A stretch of 63,252 bases of DNA, the filler included, from Stramenopiles sp. TOSAG23-2 (lineage: Eukaryota), in NCBI GenBank assembly GCA_900128395.1. It is 13 parts of 13 records of this genome, joined end to end, with 100 filler letters (N's around TTAATTAATTAA, not from the genome) between each part and the next. Parts side by side here need not be neighbours in the genome. Positions count along the whole stretch, not along the records: positions 11,863 to 17,691 come from LT650583.1; 12 more parts are not named here. One strand, 5' to 3'. The notes beneath the pieces were generated by a model. The model saw nothing but the letters and a program-made list of their open reading frames with translations, searched no databases and had not been told where the DNA came from. Both the position numbers and the translations under genes were made by a program. Within the stretch, counting starts at the first letter, position 1. Each line of letters starts with the position of its first letter. Below, piece by piece: positions 2,643 through 16,662 of the stretch.

Positions 2643-3389
2643 TTACTCATCTGCTTTTGTTGCCTTCTCCGTTTCAACAGTTTTTAACAATTTTTGTGTT
2701 TCTTTTTTTGTTAAAGATTGATGAATGGTACGATTTTCAACACGTTGTAATACAGAAAATTCCATTTTATCCTCTGTAAAACTTTGCGTATCCATTGCTT
2801 TTGCTAAAACACTTACACATAATTTTAATGCATCTTGTAAAGAAATATCTTCTTTATATTCTTTTTTCAACATATCACGTGCCATTTGATTATTGTTACC
2901 AATTGCAATTGCTTTCCATCCAACATAATTGCCACTTGGATCTGCATGGTATAATTGATATTTGTGATTTTTGTCGTACCCACCAATTAAGAACGATACA
3001 CCAAATGGTCGTTGTCCACCATACATCGTGTATGTATGAGCAATATCAGCTAAAGATAATACCAACGTTTCAACTGGAATTGGTTGTTGATAACTATATC
3101 GATGTTGTTGTGCACGTACCCTTGCATGTTGGATCAAAATGTTTGCATCAGATGCTAAACCAGCTACTGCAACAGCAATATGCTCATCGATCTTGTACAT
3201 TTTCTCGCTACCTTTTGGCGGTGCTAGTAACTTTGAAACTGCTTTTTTCTCCGCACCAAAAACAACACCTTCCTTAGTTAATATACCAACACAAACACCA
3301 GCTTGGTCAATTGCTTTCATAGCATATTCCACTTGATGCAAACGCCCTTCTGGGGAAAATGTAGTGGTACGTGAGTCATAACGTGACAT
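2643..3389 (-). CDS. PSMA4: 20S proteasome subunit alpha type-4 (alpha3/Pre9)
   Basis: MSRYDSRTTTFSPEGRLHQVEYA alpha-subunit signature, AVAGLASDANILI, RPFGVSFL, DPSGNYVGWKA. Confidence 0.95.
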   Translation of the reverse strand: MSRYDSRTTTFSPEGRLHQVEYAMKAIDQAGVCVGILTKEGVVFGAEKKAVSKLLAPPKGSEKMYKIDEHIAVAVAGLASDANILIQHARVRAQQHRYSYQQPIPVETLVLSLADIAHTYTMYGGQRPFGVSFLIGGYDKNHKYQLYHADPSGNYVGWKAIAIGNNNQMARDMLKKEYKEDISLQDALKLCVSVLAKAMDTQSFTEDKMEFSVLQRVENRTIHQSLTKKETQKLLKTVETEKATKADE

Positions 3390-11762: not shown

Positions 11763-12109
11763 NNNNNNNNNNNNNNNNNNNNNNNNNNNNNNNNNNNNNN
11801 NNNNNNTTAATTAATTAANNNNNNNNNNNNNNNNNNNNNNNNNNNNNNNNNNNNNNNNNNNNCTTCCTAATGCTATTCTCTTACTATGCGTCTCCTACGC
11901 TATTTATATGTATAATAAGATCGTATTAAATTTATATTATCCCCATTTGTGTAGTAGAGGGTAAAAGTAAATCATATATACATAATAATAATAATAATAG
12001 AGACGACAACTATCATAATAATATAGTTCAGTGCGCATATACTGTTACAATATATATATCTACATATTCATCTAAATATACGCATATATATCAACACGTA
12101 CGTAATACA

Positions 12110-12928
12110 ATGCCGGAACAAAACAATTCATTTATGTGGAATTTATTCCTTACGTTTAAAAAAGCAAGTTGGTTTAAGATAATTGGTTACCCTGCTTACT
12201 TAGTTAGGACAAGAAAACAATTGGTAAGGTATCCATTTACTGCAAGTAATGGCAAAACATATTCTGGTACTATATTAGGAATAGCCCAACAACTTGCCGA
12301 TGAAGGCTTCGTAAATATGATAGCTTTAATACCGCAATGTTTCCGTGTACTTCCTACGCAAATGATTAATGCTGCTTTAAAAGATCCAGTTAAATCTTTT
12401 TTTAAAGTTGAAAAAGACTCCTCGTTTTTTAAAAGATTATTGTCTAATGTCTTGGCCGGAACAGTGGCGGGTGGGCTATCCTTGGCCGTTGTGTATGGCT
12501 TGGATCGATATCAAACAGTATCTGCACTTCCACCAGAGTGTGTAACAGAACCAAGTACAATTTATGACATATACAGTGGATATGGTCTTGACATAGTTGG
12601 TATAATGGTGTACCGTGGATTATATTTTGGGTATTATGATACAGCGAAGGGCAGCAAAGATTTATTATTTCCAAAAGGCTTTATGGGACACTTTGTTAAT
12701 CTCAGAAGCGTGTTACAGCTAGTATGTTATCCTCTTGGTACTATTAGTCTAACGCAAAGGGTACATTGTTGTACAATATCAGAAGCTATTTCGATCATTA
12801 ATGATCATCCAGATGGTTTGTGGGAAGGATATATGGGTGGATGGAAAGAATCATTTGTGCTTCATGTTGTCATTGGCATTGGTTTTCATTATTTATACAA
12901 ATTGTATCCTACGGAAAATAAGAAGTAA
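12110..12928 (+). CDS. Highly divergent ADP/ATP-carrier-like mitochondrial carrier (SLC25), tandem paralog of the next gene
   Basis: RVLPTQMINAALKD (cf. RYFPTQALNFAFKD) and GIMVYRGLYFGYYDTAKG. Shares RKQLxRYP, SALPPxCVxEPST and HPDGLWEGYMGGWKE with 13704-15096. Confidence 0.75.
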   Translation: MPEQNNSFMWNLFLTFKKASWFKIIGYPAYLVRTRKQLVRYPFTASNGKTYSGTILGIAQQLADEGFVNMIALIPQCFRVLPTQMINAALKDPVKSFFKVEKDSSFFKRLLSNVLAGTVAGGLSLAVVYGLDRYQTVSALPPECVTEPSTIYDIYSGYGLDIVGIMVYRGLYFGYYDTAKGSKDLLFPKGFMGHFVNLRSVLQLVCYPLGTISLTQRVHCCTISEAISIINDHPDGLWEGYMGGWKESFVLHVVIGIGFHYLYKLYPTENKK

Positions 12929-13703
12929 GAGATATTAAATGCTATACTATACGAGGCCTCGTATATAGTGTGCCAGCCAAATTCGATTTTTTTTTCTTGT
13001 GGCAGTGGCCTGACCTCAAATGAAAACTTCCTCAATTTTGCCTTAGCTATAGCTATATATACAAAATCGCTTAGTAGATTATCTCATGGAGCTTTAAATG
13101 GGGTGGTTACAAAAACATAAATAGAGTTTTTTTTTTTTTTCTCTTGTGTCTCTTAAAAAATTATTGATTTTTTTGATCTCACAAACCGCAAACTCATGAA
13201 TTAAAAGGGAAAAAAAAATACGCGCGAGGTATGCCAATATTTATACATGTAAATGTATTTTACTGTATGACAATAAAAAAGATTTTTACATTTAACATTA
13301 AAATATCTATACGAATATTGTATTGTATTACACTTGCCTCGCAGTTTCAAAAGGAAATGTCTCCAGGATGTTCCCCATCACTTGCACACTGCACACTTTA
13401 TCGATTAAACACTAACATTGTAGTATTTCTATGCACCATAACCACCTCGATCCTCATTTTAGGTATCTTTTGTATAAAATAAATAACAGGTACACAGTAT
13501 GGGAAAACAGATTAATAAAAAAAAATCCTCCTTCTTTTTTACCTCTACGACAAAAATATATATAAAAAATAAAGAAATAATATTAATTAATACAGACAGA
13601 CATAGATAGATAGATATTTCATCACATATTATATGTATATATATATATATATACATATATAAACATACATATATATATAGAAGCGCGCCAGTTGGGAAAA
13701 AAA

Positions 13704-15096
13704 ATGCCGCCGCCATCAAACCAACGAAAGGTACGGTTAAGTTTTTTGGAAAGTTTATGCTTAGCTGGTGGTGCAGCAGCTTGTTCCAAGATTGTTTCTA
13801 CTCCATTGGAAAATATTAAAATACGCAAACAACTTATAAGATATCCATGTACTTCAAGTAGCACTGGTAAAGTATATTCTGGTACAACTCTTGGAATATT
13901 TCAGCAACTTACTGATGAAGGTTTTTTTCTAGGTATTATGGGGGGGTGTGGTACCAAATGTACTTCGTTATTACCCCACACAAGCTTTAAATTTTGCTTT
14001 TAAAGATTCAATTAAATCTTATTTCAAACCGGGAAAAGATTCATCATTTTTTAAAAAAATATTATATAATACAATATCAGGTACTCTTGCTGGAACGATA
14101 ACCTTAGGTGTTGTATATGGTATGGATCGATGGCGTACAGTATCTGCACTTCCTCCAGGGTGTGTAATAGAACCAAGTACATATTATCAAATGTATAGTG
14201 GCTTTGGCGTGTCATTATTAGGTATGTTTGTTTATCGTGGATCGTATTTTGGGATTTATGATATGGTAGGAAGTATAAGACAACATGTTTCATCATTTTG
14301 GGGAAGATTTGCGTTAGGGTATTCAGTTACATCAATAGCTGGACTTATAGTATATCCATTAGATACTATTCGTAGAACACAAATGATAAATTGCTGTACA
14401 GCATCAAAAGCAATTTCAATCATCCATGGTCATCCAGATGGTCTATGGGAAGGTTATATGGGTGGATGGAAAGAGAATGTTATTCGAGGACTTCTTGGGA
14501 CTATGGTTTTAATTACATTTGATTATTTCAAAGAGTTGTATATTAATAGTGTATATCCAAACGGAGGTGGATCTTCAACAACTACAAATAATGTGGATGA
14601 ACGACCGTTGATATTCAATGTGACTGCACCAGAAGGCTCAAGTCCTGGGCAAGTTATTAATGTACAAACGGAAGTAGGTGTGATGCATTGTCAAATTCCA
14701 CCAGGTGTACAAGCTGGTCAAGTATTTCAAATACGTGCACCACCAGAAATGGAGCGAGCTGCTAGAGAAGCACAAAAGAAAATAACAGAAGAAAGAAACA
14801 AACATGTCGATTACATTGTTGCAAAACGTAAAGTTGGAGACAAAGTAGAGTATTTAGTTCATTTCAAAGATTCTAAATTGAAGGATGAATGGATAGATAT
14901 ATCAAGAAAATCAGGTGTTTATATTAGTTCCAAGAAAGTACAGCAATATAAAGAAATGGTACGTGGTATAATTTCAAATCTAGAAAATGAAAATGGAGAC
15001 GAGGAGATGATGAAATTATTGAAAGACAAAATTGGCGAGAGTGATTCATTATTATCAAATCCACCAATGCTTTCTAGACAAGATAGTGTTGATTGA
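13704..15096 (+). CDS. ADP/ATP-carrier-like mitochondrial carrier with a long C-terminal extension (Pro/Gly beta module plus chromo-like domain); +1 frameshift in a G7 run at 13940-13946
   Basis: AGGAAACSKIVSTPLENIK, NVLRYYPTQALNFAFKD, VYRGSYFGIYD, YPLDTIRR. Removing one G gives EGFFLGIMGGVVPNVLRYYP, which parallels repeat 3 (GLWEGYMGGWKENVIRG). Confidence 0.85.
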
Positions 15097-15723
15097 CAAT
15101 AAAAAGATGTGTATAAAATACAATATACGTATTATATGTGTGTTGTTGAGACGTATACATTATATAGAAAGGGAAAAGATCTTAATGCATAATGCGCGTT
15201 TTAAATTGTGTACGTTCGTAATTGATACGTCGTATATTCTATGGCAGCCAAAAAGATCAGACCAGCCATTTTACACATAGGATAAAAGAAAGCAGCAAGT
15301 GTTTAATTTCAATAGCTTTAGCAACAAGTATAGAAGATTTACTTGTATCATTTAAATCAATTGGGGAAACTATCGCAATACCTGGAAAAGTAAAGTACAT
15401 GTACATATTTCTAAAATATGATAACTATTGTTTGTACTTTTTTGTAGTGCCACTACTACTTTCATTTCCTATCAATAATGTCGTGGAAGTAGTACTTACA
15501 ACATTAAGTGCCATTTTGAAATCCACTAATAATCCTTCTCATTTTTACAAGGTGTGCGATTCACTATCTATAATTTTATTATTAATATGCCGGAAATCGT
15601 CATATACGCATGTTTTCATCTTTGCACCTTTCATCTGTCATCCGTCATGATACGACACAAGGAGATATACTTACAACCGTCTATCTTAACTTTCAAACAA
15701 AGAACTTTGGTATTATTTGAACG

Positions 15724-16662
15724 ATGTCATCTGAACGCCCCATTAAAAAACATAAAGTTGCTGGCTTAGACTGGGAAGCGATTAAGAAGGTCTTGGGTGA
15801 TGAAGATTTATTTGGAGAAATGAAAAAAGGAGATGTAACTTCGTTTGACATACAATTTGAAATTCATGCTAAAACGATACAAGTAATAACACTGGCTATT
15901 TTGCAACAAAAGAACTTGTCTCAGCTATCAGCAACTAATCACGACGAAAGTTGGGGGGACGACTGGTGCCATATCGAACCGCTTCTTTCTAAACTACCAA
16001 ACATAACCTGTTTGGATTTCAGTAATAGTGATATTAGTTACAATAACGACCAACAATGGAAAAAATTATCGCCTGCAATAGGGCGTCTTTTGAACTTAAC
16101 TTCATTGAACATACGGAATAATGGCATTAGATACGAAGGTTGGAAATATTTAAGTAATGCATTTACACATCTAAGCTGTTTAGAACACTTAGATATCAGT
16201 GAAAACTATGTAATGTTGTATGAGAATGAGGATGATGACGAAGACGACGACGATAAAGTTTACGTTGGGGACAGTATCAAAAAAATGTTTGCCACATTAT
16301 CCAAACTGGAAAAACTAAAAAGTTTAATTTTGGAAAATGTAACTATTAGCGATGCTTGCATTGAAGCTTTGGCTCCCTCGTTGGTGGAGATGAAGGCGCT
16401 GGAAATATGTGACTTACATGGTAATAATATAAGGGATGAAGGTGTGAAAATCTTAGTTTCCTGCTTGCCAAAAATGACAGCGTTATGTACACTTGATGCT
16501 AGTAATAACGATTTTAGCGACGAGAGCCAAATGATTTTAAAAGAAGCGTGGGAAAGCGCTGGAAAGGATTTAGATCAGTTAAGTCTCATAAAAAATACTT
16601 CATCCGATGACGATTCAGACATTGACGAGTCAGACGATGATGATTCAGACAATGGCGATTAA
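15724..16662 (+). CDS. Leucine-rich repeat protein (ribonuclease-inhibitor/RanGAP-like 28-aa LRRs) with acidic tail
   Basis: LxxLxLxxNxI repeats: LTSLNIRNNGI, LEHLDISENYV, LEICDLHGNNIRDEG, LCTLDASNNDF. Confidence 0.85.
   Translation: MSSERPIKKHKVAGLDWEAIKKVLGDEDLFGEMKKGDVTSFDIQFEIHAKTIQVITLAILQQKNLSQLSATNHDESWGDDWCHIEPLLSKLPNITCLDFSNSDISYNNDQQWKKLSPAIGRLLNLTSLNIRNNGIRYEGWKYLSNAFTHLSCLEHLDISENYVMLYENEDDDEDDDDKVYVGDSIKKMFATLSKLEKLKSLILENVTISDACIEALAPSLVEMKALEICDLHGNNIRDEGVKILVSCLPKMTALCTLDASNNDFSDESQMILKEAWESAGKDLDQLSLIKNTSSDDDSDIDESDDDDSDNGD

What the first reader, a model, noticed from the sequence alone, without database searches (positions are those of the whole stretch)
13704..15096. ADP/ATP-carrier-like protein fused to a Pro/Gly beta module and a chromo/Tudor-knot-like domain
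Seen: after the sixth carrier helix (ITFDYFKELY) the frame continues for about 180 aa. First comes FNVTAPEGSSPGQVINVQTEVGVMHCQIPPGVQAGQVFQIRAP (about 14614-14742, an internally duplicated xVxxPxGxxxGQ unit). Then comes HVDYIVAKRKVGDKVEYLVHFKDSKLKDEWID...KKVQQYK (about 14803-14955), which follows the chromodomain pattern VExIxxxR..G.VEYLVKW...W and the chromo-barrel YxVH...DEW motif, with an apparently incomplete aromatic cage. Established: ADP/ATP carriers normally end shortly after helix 6. The hallmark RRRMMM is RRTQMI here and repeat 2 has YGMDRWR in place of PxDxxR, which suggests altered substrate or function. Inference: a regulated or repurposed carrier with a soluble reader domain.
Basis: partly seen in the sequence, partly recalled or inferred. 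Interest (0 to 1): 0.72.

Follow-up and report, generated by a model that had tools for sequence, protein, structure and literature searches.

The report
Carrier protein with chromodomain-like tail
An uncultured marine protist has a real gene in which a divergent ADP/ATP-type mitochondrial carrier runs on into a soluble tail with a small beta module and a probable chromodomain, a combination not described before whose function is unknown.

Summary
In this window the gene is broken by a 1-base insertion: a G7 run at 13940-13946, where other copies have G6. Two independent metagenome contigs, one RNA contig and 9 of 15 listed members of a 61-member protein cluster carry an intact 462-aa ORF, carrier plus extension. 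The extension is real coding sequence. It has 178 open codons (0 of 200,000 shuffles stay open), no indels between strains, and 98.9-99.6% identity against 90.6-95.6% in intergenic DNA.

The Pro/Gly unit belongs to a widespread, unnamed two-hairpin repeat family (73 HMMER hits). The chromo-like part has no sequence relatives. It falls below Pfam's cut-off, but four weak lines point the same way:
- The only PDB sequence hits are cpSRP43 chromodomains (3 of 3, best E 0.0026).
- Two AlphaFold models give three strands plus a helix.
- Foldseek puts chromodomains on top.
- The nearest ESM clusters are chromodomain clusters.

The aromatic cage is incomplete, so histone methyl-lysine reading is unlikely. 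The carrier is AAC-derived. It keeps the substrate and gate residues, but RRRMMM reads RRTQMI and two matrix loops are shortened. Only this species-level lineage has the fusion. I rate it a new variant of a known kind, of moderate interest.

The parts
13704..15096 (+). Whole gene (462 aa when intact; no intron). In this window it is interrupted by a +1 frameshift.
   Evidence: ORFs 13704-14003 and 14122-15096 lie in different frames. The intact collinear 462-aa ORFs are L001:2460-3848 and L002:4001-5389.
13705..13707 (+). In-frame 3-base polymorphism: MPPPSNQ here, MPPSNQ in L001, L002 and P0002.
   Evidence: Alignment. The RNA contig of X15 leaves out 3 letters at 13706 and the DNA contig of X3 leaves out 2 at 13705. 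P0132 also has PPP.
13940..13946 (+). G7 homopolymer. It has one G more than in every other copy seen and causes the frameshift.
   Evidence: One letter is left out at 13940 in X3 (DNA, depth 21.6) and X15 (RNA, depth 5.5), while X1 keeps it. P0002 and P0132 read GIMGGVVPNV.
13704..14535 (+). AAC-derived SLC25 carrier domain (P0002 residues 1-276): six transmembrane helices, with shortened matrix loops 2 and 3.
   Evidence: Pfam Mito_carr 30.1 and 32.4 bits against a cut-off of 22.3. phmmer against bovine AAC1 1okc gives E 1.5e-33. The AF2 model has six long helices at pLDDT 75-91. Foldseek against 1okc gives E 1.3e-12, TMt 0.78.
14119..14136 (+). GMDRWR: the repeat-2 signature with P changed to G; D and R are kept.
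   Evidence: At this position 23 of 40 canonical-like AACs have P and 17 have S; 14 of 19 short family members have G.
14371..14388 (+). RRTQMI in place of the AAC hallmark RRRMMM.
   Evidence: R236 is R in 40 of 40 canonical-like AACs, M237 is M in 39 of 40, and M239 is M in 40 of 40. Here they are T, Q and I, while R234, R235 and M238 are kept.
14536..14607 (+). Gly/Ser/Thr-rich linker (P0002 residues 277-300).
   Evidence: pLDDT is below 50 for residues 289-298. It holds the strain-variable residues N/D and VD/AN.
14608..14742 (+). Pro/Gly double beta-hairpin module (residues 301-345): two xVxxPxGxxxGQ units forming four strands.
   Evidence: 73 HMMER hits at E<=1e-3, of which 71 have their best stretch within query residues 2-85. 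Alignment A3 shows 36-49% identity to 10 short hits. AF2 gives four strands at pLDDT 74-90.
14743..14802 (+). Charged helix (residues 346-365) between the two modules.
14803..14988 (+). Chromodomain-like domain (residues 366-427): three strands plus a C-terminal helix. Net charge +4.
   Evidence: Pfam Chromo E 0.033 and Tudor-knot E 0.034, both below cut-off. PDB phmmer finds only cpSRP43 chromodomains, E 0.0026-0.026. AF2 topology comes at pLDDT 55-66. Foldseek chromodomain matches have prob 0.93-0.99 and TMt 0.47-0.68. ESM Atlas score 0.82 to Chromo clusters. Charge.
14989..15096 (+). Acidic helical tail (residues 428-462, net charge -5) and the TGA stop.
   Evidence: AF2 helix 432-450, with pLDDT falling to about 30 at the end. 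Charge.
12110..12928 (+). Tandem paralogue (272 aa) of the same lineage-specific family. It has no extension and its gate residues are degenerate.
   Evidence: It is conserved in tandem in L002:2398-3216.

Best explanation
Shown:
- This is a genuine, intron-less nuclear gene of an uncultured marine stramenopile.
- It encodes a lineage-specific ADP/ATP-carrier derivative whose C-terminus was extended by about 185 residues.
- The extension runs in this order: flexible linker, one Pro/Gly double-hairpin module of a widespread protist repeat family, a charged helix, a chromodomain-like fold and an acidic helical tail.
- The carrier keeps the AAC substrate-contact residues and most of both salt-bridge gates.

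Inferred:
- It is most likely still a nucleotide-type exchanger of the mitochondrial inner membrane. Its kinetics are probably altered by the change of RRRMMM to RRTQMI, the P-to-G change in repeat 2 and the two shortened matrix loops.
- Carrier termini face the intermembrane space (established for SLC25), so the tail would sit on that side.
- There it would act as a protein-protein docking or regulatory appendage. It would bind a linear motif by beta-augmentation, as the non-nuclear chromodomains of cpSRP43 do, rather than read methylated histones.

The copy in this window carries a 1-base insertion. That is either a sequencing or amplification error or a rare null allele.

Sub-claim odds: fusion real 0.95; chromodomain-like fold 0.8; docking or regulatory role on the cytosolic/IMS face 0.5.
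For: Fusion is real:
- Intact 462-aa ORFs occur on two independent metagenome contigs, L001 and L002.
- In the P0002 cluster (61 members, 40 read, 15 listed), 9 of the 15 listed are 462 aa. P0122 (295 aa) and P0126 (212 aa) span the junction.
- DNA contig X3 record 25 covers 14444-15227.

The extension is coding sequence:
- 0 of 200,000 shuffles stay open.
- It shows 0 gap columns of 537 and 98.9-99.6% identity. The intergenic stretch 12929-13703 shows 133 gap columns of 845 and 95.6% identity against L002, and 90.6% against L001.

RNA: X15 contigs cover 13694-14143 (with G6) and 14571-15154; X17 contigs cover parts of both halves.

Carrier:
- phmmer against AAC1 gives E 1.5e-33, against UCP 1e-3.
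- K22, E29, K32, R79, D134, R137, Y186, R187, D231, R234, R235, R279, D291 and K294 are all kept.
- Foldseek puts AAC structures on top.
- In the tree the 21 family rows form one side of a 100/100 branch. The fused lineage has the shortest stem, 0.28.

Pro/Gly module.

Chromo-like fold:
- 3 of 3 PDB sequence hits are cpSRP43 chromodomains.
- Both AF2 models give a beta-beta-beta-alpha topology.
- 28 of 38 listed Foldseek rows are chromodomains.
- cpSRP43 5e4w_C recurs with the second model at 37% identity over 51 columns.
- The nearest ESM clusters are Chromo clusters.

Precedent: cpSRP43 chromodomains bind unmodified basic tails through a modified Trp/Glu/Asp cage (passages of PMC4660199). 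Here the Asp is kept and Trp is replaced by Phe (alignment).
Against: - No transport, localisation or binding data exist.
- The chromo-like call rests on weak scores. Pfam gives 14.6 bits against a cut-off of 25.1. Foldseek E-values are 0.017-0.3 with none at or below 0.001. pLDDT is only 55-66 in that region. The ESM score of 0.82 is in the range that shuffled proteins reach a third of the time.
- No sequence relative of residues 346-462 was found among 1.84 billion representatives or in the word search.
- The Glu of the cpSRP43 cage aligns with Arg here, and the domain is basic whereas cpSRP43's chromodomain surface is acidic. A cpSRP43-like ligand is therefore not implied.
- R236, M237 and M239 are invariant or nearly so in canonical-like AACs. 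They lie in the core of the matrix gate (passages of PMC9502086). Normal ADP/ATP exchange is therefore doubtful.
- The fusion is confined to variants at least 98% identical. The nearest relatives (at most 58% identity) all end after helix 6, including the P0020-type gene in L005.
- Between strains the extension shows 2-4 nonsynonymous against 0-2 synonymous changes, too few to show purifying selection.
- Broken or odd alleles exist: the window's G7, P0129 and the recombinant P0139.
Confidence: 0.5

Rival explanations
1. Young, effectively neutral fusion. A recent read-through or exon capture appended a Pro/Gly module and a decaying chromodomain-like piece to one member of a fast-evolving tandem family. 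The tail has no selected function and the gene may be on its way to loss.
For: - The fusion is found only in variants at least 98% identical. None of the other 119 listed homologues covers more than 54% of the query.
- There are no relatives of residues 346-462 anywhere.
- Nonsynonymous changes equal or exceed synonymous ones in the tail.
- There is a frameshifted copy here, an aberrant P0129 and a paralogue-fused recombinant P0139.
- The neighbouring paralogue diverges at near-intergenic rate, 94.7%.
Against: - The tail is kept open and indel-free in all three DNA haplotypes and in all 14 of 15 listed cluster members that reach it.
- Its substitution rate is about 4-20 times lower than that of adjacent intergenic DNA.
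- It folds into defined modules in both AF2 runs.
- It is present in RNA libraries.
Confidence: 0.2
2. The carrier domain serves as a membrane anchor outside the inner membrane, in the outer mitochondrial membrane, the ER or the nuclear envelope. The tail faces cytosol or nucleoplasm and binds client proteins or chromatin. This would resemble the SLC25-derived MTCH insertases or the lamin B receptor (Tudor domain plus multi-pass enzyme; the latter is recalled, not from a call).
For: - SLC25 descendants with non-transport roles exist (MTCH family; abstract of PMC12934571 seen in the listing).
- The short paralogues of this family have lost most gate and substrate residues.
- Chromodomain-like folds normally act in the nucleus (passage of PMC4660199).
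Against: - The fused member itself keeps the full AAC binding site, both networks and all six helices, unlike MTCH2, which lost a helix.
- The aromatic cage is incomplete.
- No nuclear or ER targeting feature was seen, though none was specifically tested.
Confidence: 0.12
3. The chromodomain resemblance is spurious. The tail is a Pro/Gly module followed by a generic lysine-rich beta/alpha segment and coiled helices, for example an oligomerisation or lipid-binding tail.
For: Every chromo score is sub-threshold. Model confidence is low in that region. The VIA wide search matched only the helical hairpin 121-173. There is lysine-rich composition bias.
Against: Four methods converge on the same fold:
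- The PDB sequence search returned only cpSRP43 chromodomains, with a calibrated E of 0.0026 in 177,635 sequences.
- The single-sequence AF2 model, built without any alignment, matched CBX, CDYL, HP1 and cpSRP43 chromodomains at rmsd 2.4-3.5 over about 50-55 residues.
- The second AF2 model again matched cpSRP43 and CBX7.
- The nearest ESM clusters are Chromo clusters.
Confidence: 0.15
4. Artefact: the carrier-extension join is an assembly chimera, or the whole locus is a dead pseudogene.
For: The window copy is frameshifted. The window loses collinearity with L001 and L002 at 15227, next to a high-copy element. RNA contigs do not bridge 14553-14570.
Against: The join at about 14540-14610 is identical in L001, L002, X3 and the ENA cluster members. 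The synteny break lies 131 bases beyond the stop codon. Intact alleles dominate the listed cluster members.
Confidence: 0.03

Closest known systems
Mitochondrial ADP/ATP carriers (bovine AAC1 1okc, yeast Aac2/3 4c9h/4c9q)
   Same: Best sequence and fold match: E 1.5e-33, 30% identity, TMt 0.78-0.82. Three repeats and six helices. It shares K22, R79 and R279, the Y186/R187 pocket, the matrix network in all three repeats and two and a half of the three cytoplasmic-network pairs.
   Different: RRRMMM reads RRTQMI. P132 is G and K198 is G. Matrix loops 2 and 3 are about 10-13 residues shorter (alignment). Matrix loop 3 holds a family-specific invariant segment, CCTxSxAIxII..HPxGLWEGYMxG. There is a 185-residue C-terminal tail, which none of the 40 canonical-like AACs in A2 has.
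SLC25 carriers with appended soluble domains (ATP-Mg/Pi carriers; aspartate/glutamate carriers aralar and citrin)
   Same: A carrier domain joined to soluble domains on the intermembrane-space side that regulate or organise it. AGCs also have a C-terminal helix (abstracts of PMC4250520 and PMC11539162 seen in the listing).
   Different: Those domains are N-terminal EF-hand calcium sensors conserved across eukaryotes. Here the appendage is C-terminal, has no EF hand, consists of a Pro/Gly hairpin module plus a chromodomain-like fold, and is limited to one lineage.
cpSRP43 chromodomains CD2 and CD3 (3ui2, 5e4w, 1x3q)
   Same: They are the only solved proteins found by sequence. Both have the short-hairpin chromodomain form (xVDxIVxKRxxGxxVEYLVxxKD...EW). 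In cpSRP43 the fold serves non-nuclear use in organellar membrane-protein biology. The cage Asp is conserved and an aromatic residue (Phe) stands at the Trp position.
   Different: There are no ankyrin repeats. The cage Glu aligns with Arg, and the residues of the second cage (F267, Y269) align with E and N. The domain is net basic rather than acidic. The organism's named relatives are stramenopiles, not green plants. Nothing shows common descent rather than convergence on a short chromodomain.
Canonical HP1/Polycomb chromodomains (Pfam PF00385)
   Same: Predicted three-stranded sheet packed by a C-terminal helix. Foldseek TMt 0.5-0.68 and rmsd 2.4-3.5 to CBX1/2/4/6/7, CDYL, Rhino and SUV39H1.
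   Different: The Pfam score is below the gathering cut-off. The N-terminal strand that carries the first cage aromatic is replaced by a helix in both models. The third cage position is Ser/Asp. The protein is membrane-tethered.
Unnamed 'xVxVPxGxxPGQ' two-hairpin repeat of protist proteins (weak DnaJ_C likeness)
   Same: The module at 14608-14742 aligns over its full length, with invariant P, G, P and G.
   Different: Most relatives carry 2-17 copies, joined to kinases, EF hands, PARP, PA or WW domains. Here there is a single module on a carrier. The DnaJ_C likeness is seen in 18 of the 26 hits scanned and reaches the cut-off in 7. It was not detected in this protein.

Membership tests
SLC25 / mitochondrial carrier family (PF00153) | Pfam Mito_carr repeats above the gathering score | tested here: met
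   32.4 and 30.1 bits against a cut-off of 22.3 for the two halves of the window gene. P0002 is precomputed as PF00153.
SLC25 / mitochondrial carrier family (PF00153) | Six transmembrane helices in three repeats, each with a short matrix helix | tested here: met
   The AF2 model gives H13-43, H73-105, H114-146, H166-191, H197-228 and H254-282 plus matrix helices, at pLDDT 75-91. Foldseek against 1okc gives E 1.3e-12.
SLC25 / mitochondrial carrier family (PF00153) | Px[DE]xx[KR] signature on helices 1, 3 and 5 | tested here: inconclusive
   PLENIK and PLDTIR are intact. Repeat 2 reads GMDRWR, with the charged pair kept and the proline lost. 17 of 40 canonical-like AACs also lack P there and have S instead.
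ADP/ATP carrier subfamily (AAC/ANT) | RRRMMM hallmark after helix 5 | tested here: not met
   It reads RRTQMI. R236 is R in 40 of 40, M237 is M in 39 of 40 and M239 is M in 40 of 40 canonical-like AACs in A2.
ADP/ATP carrier subfamily (AAC/ANT) | Substrate contact residues K22, R79, R279, G182, Y186, R187 and R235 (bovine numbering, recalled; consistent with passages of PMC9502086) | tested here: met
   All are present in P0002. I183 is Leu.
ADP/ATP carrier subfamily (AAC/ANT) | Closest relatives are AACs rather than other SLC25 subfamilies | tested here: met
   PDB phmmer gives AACs at E 1e-29 to 1e-33 and the next best, UCP1, at 1e-3. The family nevertheless sits on its own 100/100 branch apart from the 40 canonical-like AACs.
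ADP/ATP carrier subfamily (AAC/ANT) | Electrogenic ADP/ATP exchange, inhibited by carboxyatractyloside and bongkrekic acid | not testable with these tools
   Needs reconstitution or complementation.
Chromodomain (PF00385) | Pfam gathering score | tested here: not met
   14.6 bits (E 0.033) against a cut-off of 25.1. Tudor-knot scores 14.5 against 20.8.
Chromodomain (PF00385) | Three-stranded antiparallel sheet packed by a C-terminal helix | tested here: inconclusive
   Both AF2 models give strands 367-376, 379-386 and 394-397 plus helix 408-427, but at pLDDT 55-66. Foldseek chromodomain matches have prob 0.93-0.99 but E 0.017-0.3, with none at or below 0.001.
Chromodomain (PF00385) | Three-residue aromatic cage for methyl-lysine | tested here: not met
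   By the alignment only the Trp position is aromatic (Phe). The first cage position falls in a predicted helix (Lys/Arg) and the third is Asp/Ser. Canonical cage positions are recalled.
cpSRP43-type chromodomain | Modified cage Trp + Glu + Asp that reads arginine (PMC4660199) | tested here: not met
   It reads Phe, Arg and Asp: 1 identical, 1 conservative and 1 opposite charge.
cpSRP43-type chromodomain | Context of ankyrin repeats and three chromodomains | tested here: not met
   No Ank hit in the protein at E<=1, and there is a single chromo-like unit.
Pro/Gly two-hairpin repeat family (unnamed) | Significant full-length sequence match of the roughly 42-aa module | tested here: met
   73 proteins at E<=1e-3 and 4 at E<=1e-10 in 1.84 billion representatives. 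Alignment A3.
DnaJ C-terminal domain (PF01556) | Pfam match | tested here: not met
   No DnaJ_C hit for this protein at E<=1. Only multi-copy relatives reach it, by summed weak matches: 7 of 26 are above the cut-off and none has a single passing stretch.

The most novel reading that the evidence does not exclude
A chromodomain working outside the nucleus, on the intermembrane-space face of a mitochondrial nucleotide carrier. It would be a second, independently evolved organellar use of the fold after cpSRP43. Together with the Pro/Gly hairpin it would dock a partner onto the carrier. Candidate partners are an IMS kinase, an import or insertion factor, or the basic N-terminal tail QRKVR of a neighbouring carrier; that tail is an insertion found only in the fused member. 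The carrier's exchange activity would then be physically coupled or gated.
Probability: 0.25. Interest if true: 0.7.

Novelty: new variant of a known kind. Interest (0 to 1): 0.5.

Why it matters
Mitochondrial carriers are nearly always bare six-helix proteins. The few with appended domains, the calcium-regulated ATP-Mg/Pi and aspartate/glutamate carriers, taught much about how transport is regulated. A C-terminal Pro/Gly module plus chromodomain-like fold on an AAC derivative is an architecture I could not find in print. One search found 0 papers with its three terms. Searches listed 10 of 48 and 8 of 10 matching papers, and none of those shown was relevant. If the tail is functional it would widen the non-chromatin repertoire of chromodomains. 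It would also point to a new way of coupling or regulating nucleotide exchange in an abundant, uncultured marine protist lineage. The surrounding family runs from an AAC-like founder to degenerate short paralogues, and so offers a natural series for asking how carriers lose or change function. The case stays modest because the fusion is confined to one species-level lineage and nothing functional is known.

Tried and rejected
- Whole genome: none is held for this window.
- Earlier findings of this scan: nothing for this place or sequence. The word search gave only unrelated carrier fusions.
- RNA continuity across the carrier-extension junction: of the two RNA runs laid, X17 contigs stop at 14552 and resume at 14737, and the X15 contig starts at 14571. 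Bases 14553-14570 are therefore uncovered by RNA contigs, at depths of 2-5. There are no loose ends there, so this says nothing either way.
- VIA-align wide search of the tail model: all rows fall on the helical hairpin 121-173 with Z at most 6.6, which is uninformative. The Pro/Gly module and the chromo part were effectively not tested.
- Word-indexed search with residues 355-425: only the protein itself, among 27 candidates.
- dN/dS between the three haplotypes: too few changes (tail 2-4 nonsynonymous, 0-2 synonymous; carrier 2-6 and 3-5), so inconclusive.
- Complex prediction (carrier 1-286 against tail 296-462, to test whether the tail docks on the carrier): never accepted because the queue was full. 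There is no result.
- Rfam on the whole window: 0 matches at gathering score.
- Intron or splice explanation for the frame change at 13940: rejected, because the intact copies differ by exactly one G and are collinear.
- An extension hidden behind an intron in the nearest relative (P0020-type gene in L005): rejected. After a GT..AG intron the gene ends 17 codons later, shortly after helix 6.
Full report
**Setting.** The window is AT-rich nuclear DNA (GC 0.26-0.41 per 2 kb) of a gene-dense eukaryote. Its genes include a proteasome alpha subunit, an HMG box protein, ankyrin, 5'-nucleotidase, JmjC, an Atg4-type peptidase, PPR, a C-type lectin and CrcB. For the proteasome subunit, all 12 homologues that carry an organism name are stramenopiles by my knowledge of taxonomy, at 54-59% identity. 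Much closer unnamed hits exist at 86-98%. The stretch 13600-15300 occurs in many marine and seawater metagenomes and in poly(A) metatranscriptomes. I therefore read the organism as an uncultured marine stramenopile. No whole genome is held.

**The observation.**
- Frame 0 runs 13704-14003 (99 aa) and stops. The rest is open in the +1 frame, 383 aa from 13945 to the TGA at 15094-15096.
- The switch lies in a run of seven G at 13940-13946.
- The closest database protein, P0002, is 462 aa, 98% identical and covers the query fully. It represents a 61-member cluster and reads GIMGGVVPNV through this point, as six G would give.
- Two metagenome contigs, L001 and L002, carry collinear, intact 462-codon ORFs that differ from the window by exactly one G there.
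- When public runs were laid on the region, a DNA contig of X3 and an RNA contig of X15 both leave out one letter at 13940. X1 may be the window's own source and is therefore not independent; it keeps G7 at word depth 16.7.
- P0132 shares the window's private residues (PPP, PPGC, NNVDE, His) and is intact.
- The frameshift is therefore private to this sample. It is an error or a rare null allele, and I cannot tell which.

**Is the extension real coding sequence?**
- It is 178 codons without a stop in DNA where the per-codon stop probability is about 0.08. The chance is about 3e-7, and 0 of 200,000 shuffles stay open. The other five frames have 6-14 stops each.
- Between the window and L002 or L001 the extension is 98.9% and 99.6% identical, with 0 gap columns of 537. 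This equals the carrier part (98.7% and 98.6%).
- The intergenic stretch 12929-13703 is 95.6% and 90.6% identical, with 133 gap columns of 845 against L002.
- Of 15 listed members of the P0002 cluster (61 members, 40 read), 9 are 462 aa and one is 486 aa through upstream read-through. Four are C-terminal fragments that include the tail, and two of these span the junction. One 147-aa form has an aberrant end.
- The carrier-tail join is therefore not a chimera.
- RNA contigs cover both halves (X15: 13694-14143 and 14571-15154; X17: several pieces). None of those laid covers 14553-14570, so one continuous transcript is not directly shown.
- Substitution counts between haplotypes are too few for a dN/dS statement.

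**The carrier.**
- Pfam Mito_carr is met.
- By sequence the nearest solved proteins are ADP/ATP carriers, at E 1.5e-33 to bovine AAC1 against 1e-3 for UCP1.
- The AF2 model built on 61 sequences has six long helices at pLDDT 75-91. It matches 1okc, 4c9h and 4c9q at E about 1e-12 and TMt 0.76-0.82.
- I mapped the bovine residues on alignment A2. The numbering is recalled, and is consistent with passages of PMC9502086.
- Kept: K22, E29, K32, Q36, R79, D92, K95, D134, R137, G182, Y186, R187, D195, D231, R234, R235, M238, R279, D291 and K294.
- Changed: P132G, I183L, K198G, R236T, M237Q and M239I.
- Matrix loops 2 and 3 are about 10-13 residues shorter than in AAC1 (alignment).
- The RRRMMM hallmark is therefore not met, and I do not file the protein as a canonical AAC. 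It is AAC-derived.

**The carrier's family.**
- It belongs to a lineage-specific family. 19 further sequences of 261-281 aa share an invariant segment in matrix loop 3, CCTxSxAIxII..HPxGLWEGYMxG.
- In a careful ML tree the 21 family rows form one side of a 100/100 branch against 40 canonical-like AACs.
- With a midpoint root the fused lineage is sister to the other 19 (support 93/87, not starred). It has the shortest stem, 0.28.
- Most short members have lost R137, D231, R234, R235 and often R279. One of them is the tandem paralogue at 12110-12928.
- The fused gene is thus the most AAC-like member of a degenerating family.
- None of the others has a tail. That includes the P0020-type gene in L005, which after a GT..AG intron ends shortly after helix 6.

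**The tail, part 1: the Pro/Gly module.**
- An exhaustive HMMER search of the 178-aa tail against 1.84 billion representatives gave 73 hits at E<=1e-3.
- 71 of them match only query residues 2-85, the Pro/Gly module. The two exceptions are a TPR protein and a hit that extends into low-complexity sequence.
- The hits are proteins with 1-17 copies of the same roughly 42-residue unit (consensus xVTVPxGxxPGxxLxVQTxxGxxQxQxPPGxxxGQxFQxQVP). The unit is joined to kinases, EF hands, PARP, PA and WW domains.
- Of the 26 hits I scanned, 18 show DnaJ_C likeness at E<=1e-3. Seven exceed the cut-off, always by summed weak matches.
- This protein shows no DnaJ_C likeness.
- Both AF2 models fold the module into four strands at pLDDT 74-90.
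- It is one ordinary member of a widespread, unnamed module.

**The tail, part 2: the chromo-like domain.** Residues 346-462 have no detectable sequence relatives. The evidence for a chromodomain fold is individually weak but consistent:
- Pfam Chromo scores E 0.033 and Tudor-knot E 0.034, both below cut-off.
- phmmer of 62 residues against all PDB sequences returns only three hits at E<=10. All three are cpSRP43 chromodomains (E 0.0026, 0.015, 0.026). The alignment pairs HVDYIVAKRKVGDKVEYLVHFKDSKLKDEWI with [30 protein letters not shown].
- The single-sequence AF2 model and the full-length model both give three strands and a helix, at pLDDT 55-66.
Their prob is 0.93-0.99 and E 0.017-0.3, with none at or below 0.001. 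With the second model cpSRP43 and CBX7 recur.
- The nearest ESM-Atlas clusters are Chromo clusters, at a score of 0.82, which is a lead only.

I put the fold at about 0.8.

**The cage.**
- By the alignment the Trp position is Phe and the following Asp is kept, as in cpSRP43's modified cage.
- The Glu of that cage aligns with Arg. The second-cage residues F267 and Y269 align with Glu and Asn, in what AF2 predicts as helix.
- Residue roles come from passages of PMC4660199. The index mapping is mine.
- The domain is net +4 and the tail after it is net -5, whereas cpSRP43's chromodomain surface is described as electronegative.
- Neither methyl-lysine reading nor cpSRP43-like arginine reading is therefore supported. 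The ligand is unknown.

**Mechanism (inferred).**
- Both termini of SLC25 carriers face the intermembrane space (established knowledge). A tail on an inner-membrane carrier would therefore sit there, far from chromatin.
- The parsimonious reading is a protein-protein docking or regulatory appendage on a still transport-competent, kinetically altered nucleotide carrier.
- One detail may bear on this. The fused protein alone has a basic insertion, QRKVR, in its N-terminal tail, on the same side of the membrane.
- The test of tail-carrier docking could not be run because the queue was full.
- Rivals are a young neutral fusion, a non-inner-membrane anchor with a cytosolic or nuclear tail, and a spurious chromo resemblance. 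They are weighed in their own sections.

**Comparison and novelty.**
- Carriers with soluble domains are known: the N-terminal EF-hand domains of ATP-Mg/Pi and aspartate/glutamate carriers. I saw only the abstracts of PMC4250520 and PMC11539162, in the listing.
- SLC25 descendants with non-transport roles are also known (MTCH; abstract of PMC12934571 in the same listing).
- I found nothing in print on a carrier-chromodomain fusion. One search found 0 papers with its three terms. Searches listed 10 of 48 and 8 of 10 matching papers, and none of those shown was relevant.
- Supplementary files were not consulted.
- I rate this a new variant of a known kind, confined so far to one species-level lineage, and of moderate interest.

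Noticed in passing
window 15228-15290 (element 15240-15286) and 11930: The window is collinear with metagenome contig L002 only over 11930-15227, and with L001 only over 13421-15227. L001 and L002 share a downstream flank (a convergent 347-507-aa ORF) that is absent from the whole window. The right-hand break abuts a 45-base element whose word depth is 835-2800 against 16.7 in X1, and 115 against about 16 in X3. The element occurs once in the window and has no Rfam match. The window may be rearranged or mis-joined there, so the LRR gene at 15724-16662 may not be the natural neighbour.
   Followed up: partly
window 12110-12928: The tandem paralogue (272 aa) diverges between the window and L002 at near-intergenic rate: 94.7% nucleotide identity, with 29.5 nonsynonymous and 13.5 synonymous differences. 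It has lost most gate and substrate residues, yet stays open in both copies.
   Followed up: partly
protein P0139 (453 aa, NCBI source), relative to window 12110-12800 and 14420-15096: This deposited protein joins the N-terminal part of the window-type paralogue to the C-terminal part of the fused gene, tail included. The switch lies inside the conserved AISII/HPDGLWEGYMGGWKE stretch, where the two genes share up to 20 identical bases. It is either unequal crossing-over between the tandem genes or an assembly collapse.
   Followed up: partly
window 14389-14470 (P0002 residues 228-254) and the same stretch in all family members: The segment CCTxSxAIxII..HPxGLWEGYMxG in matrix loop 3 is invariant across the eight family members aligned, whose transport residues are otherwise degenerate. 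The paired Cys and the His suggest a ligand or metal site on the matrix side. This is untested.
   Followed up: no
window 13719-13733 (P0002 residues 6-10): The fused protein alone has a basic insertion, QRKVR, in its N-terminal tail relative to the short paralogues. It lies on the same membrane face as the C-terminal tail.
   Followed up: no
L005 4770-4965: The P0020-type relative has a GT..AG intron of about 140 bases just before the end of helix 6. The fused gene and its tandem paralogue are intron-less.
   Followed up: yes
L003 658-1473 and about 2867-3115 (minus strand): Another contig carries one full family member and, about 1.4 kb away, an inverted partial copy (80.8% identical to window 12212-12448). 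This suggests frequent local duplication of this family.
   Followed up: no
window 15100-15154: An AATAAA lies just after the stop codon, and the X15 RNA contig ends at 15154 while DNA contigs run on to 15227. This fits a short 3' UTR, but contigs cannot show RNA ends.
   Followed up: no
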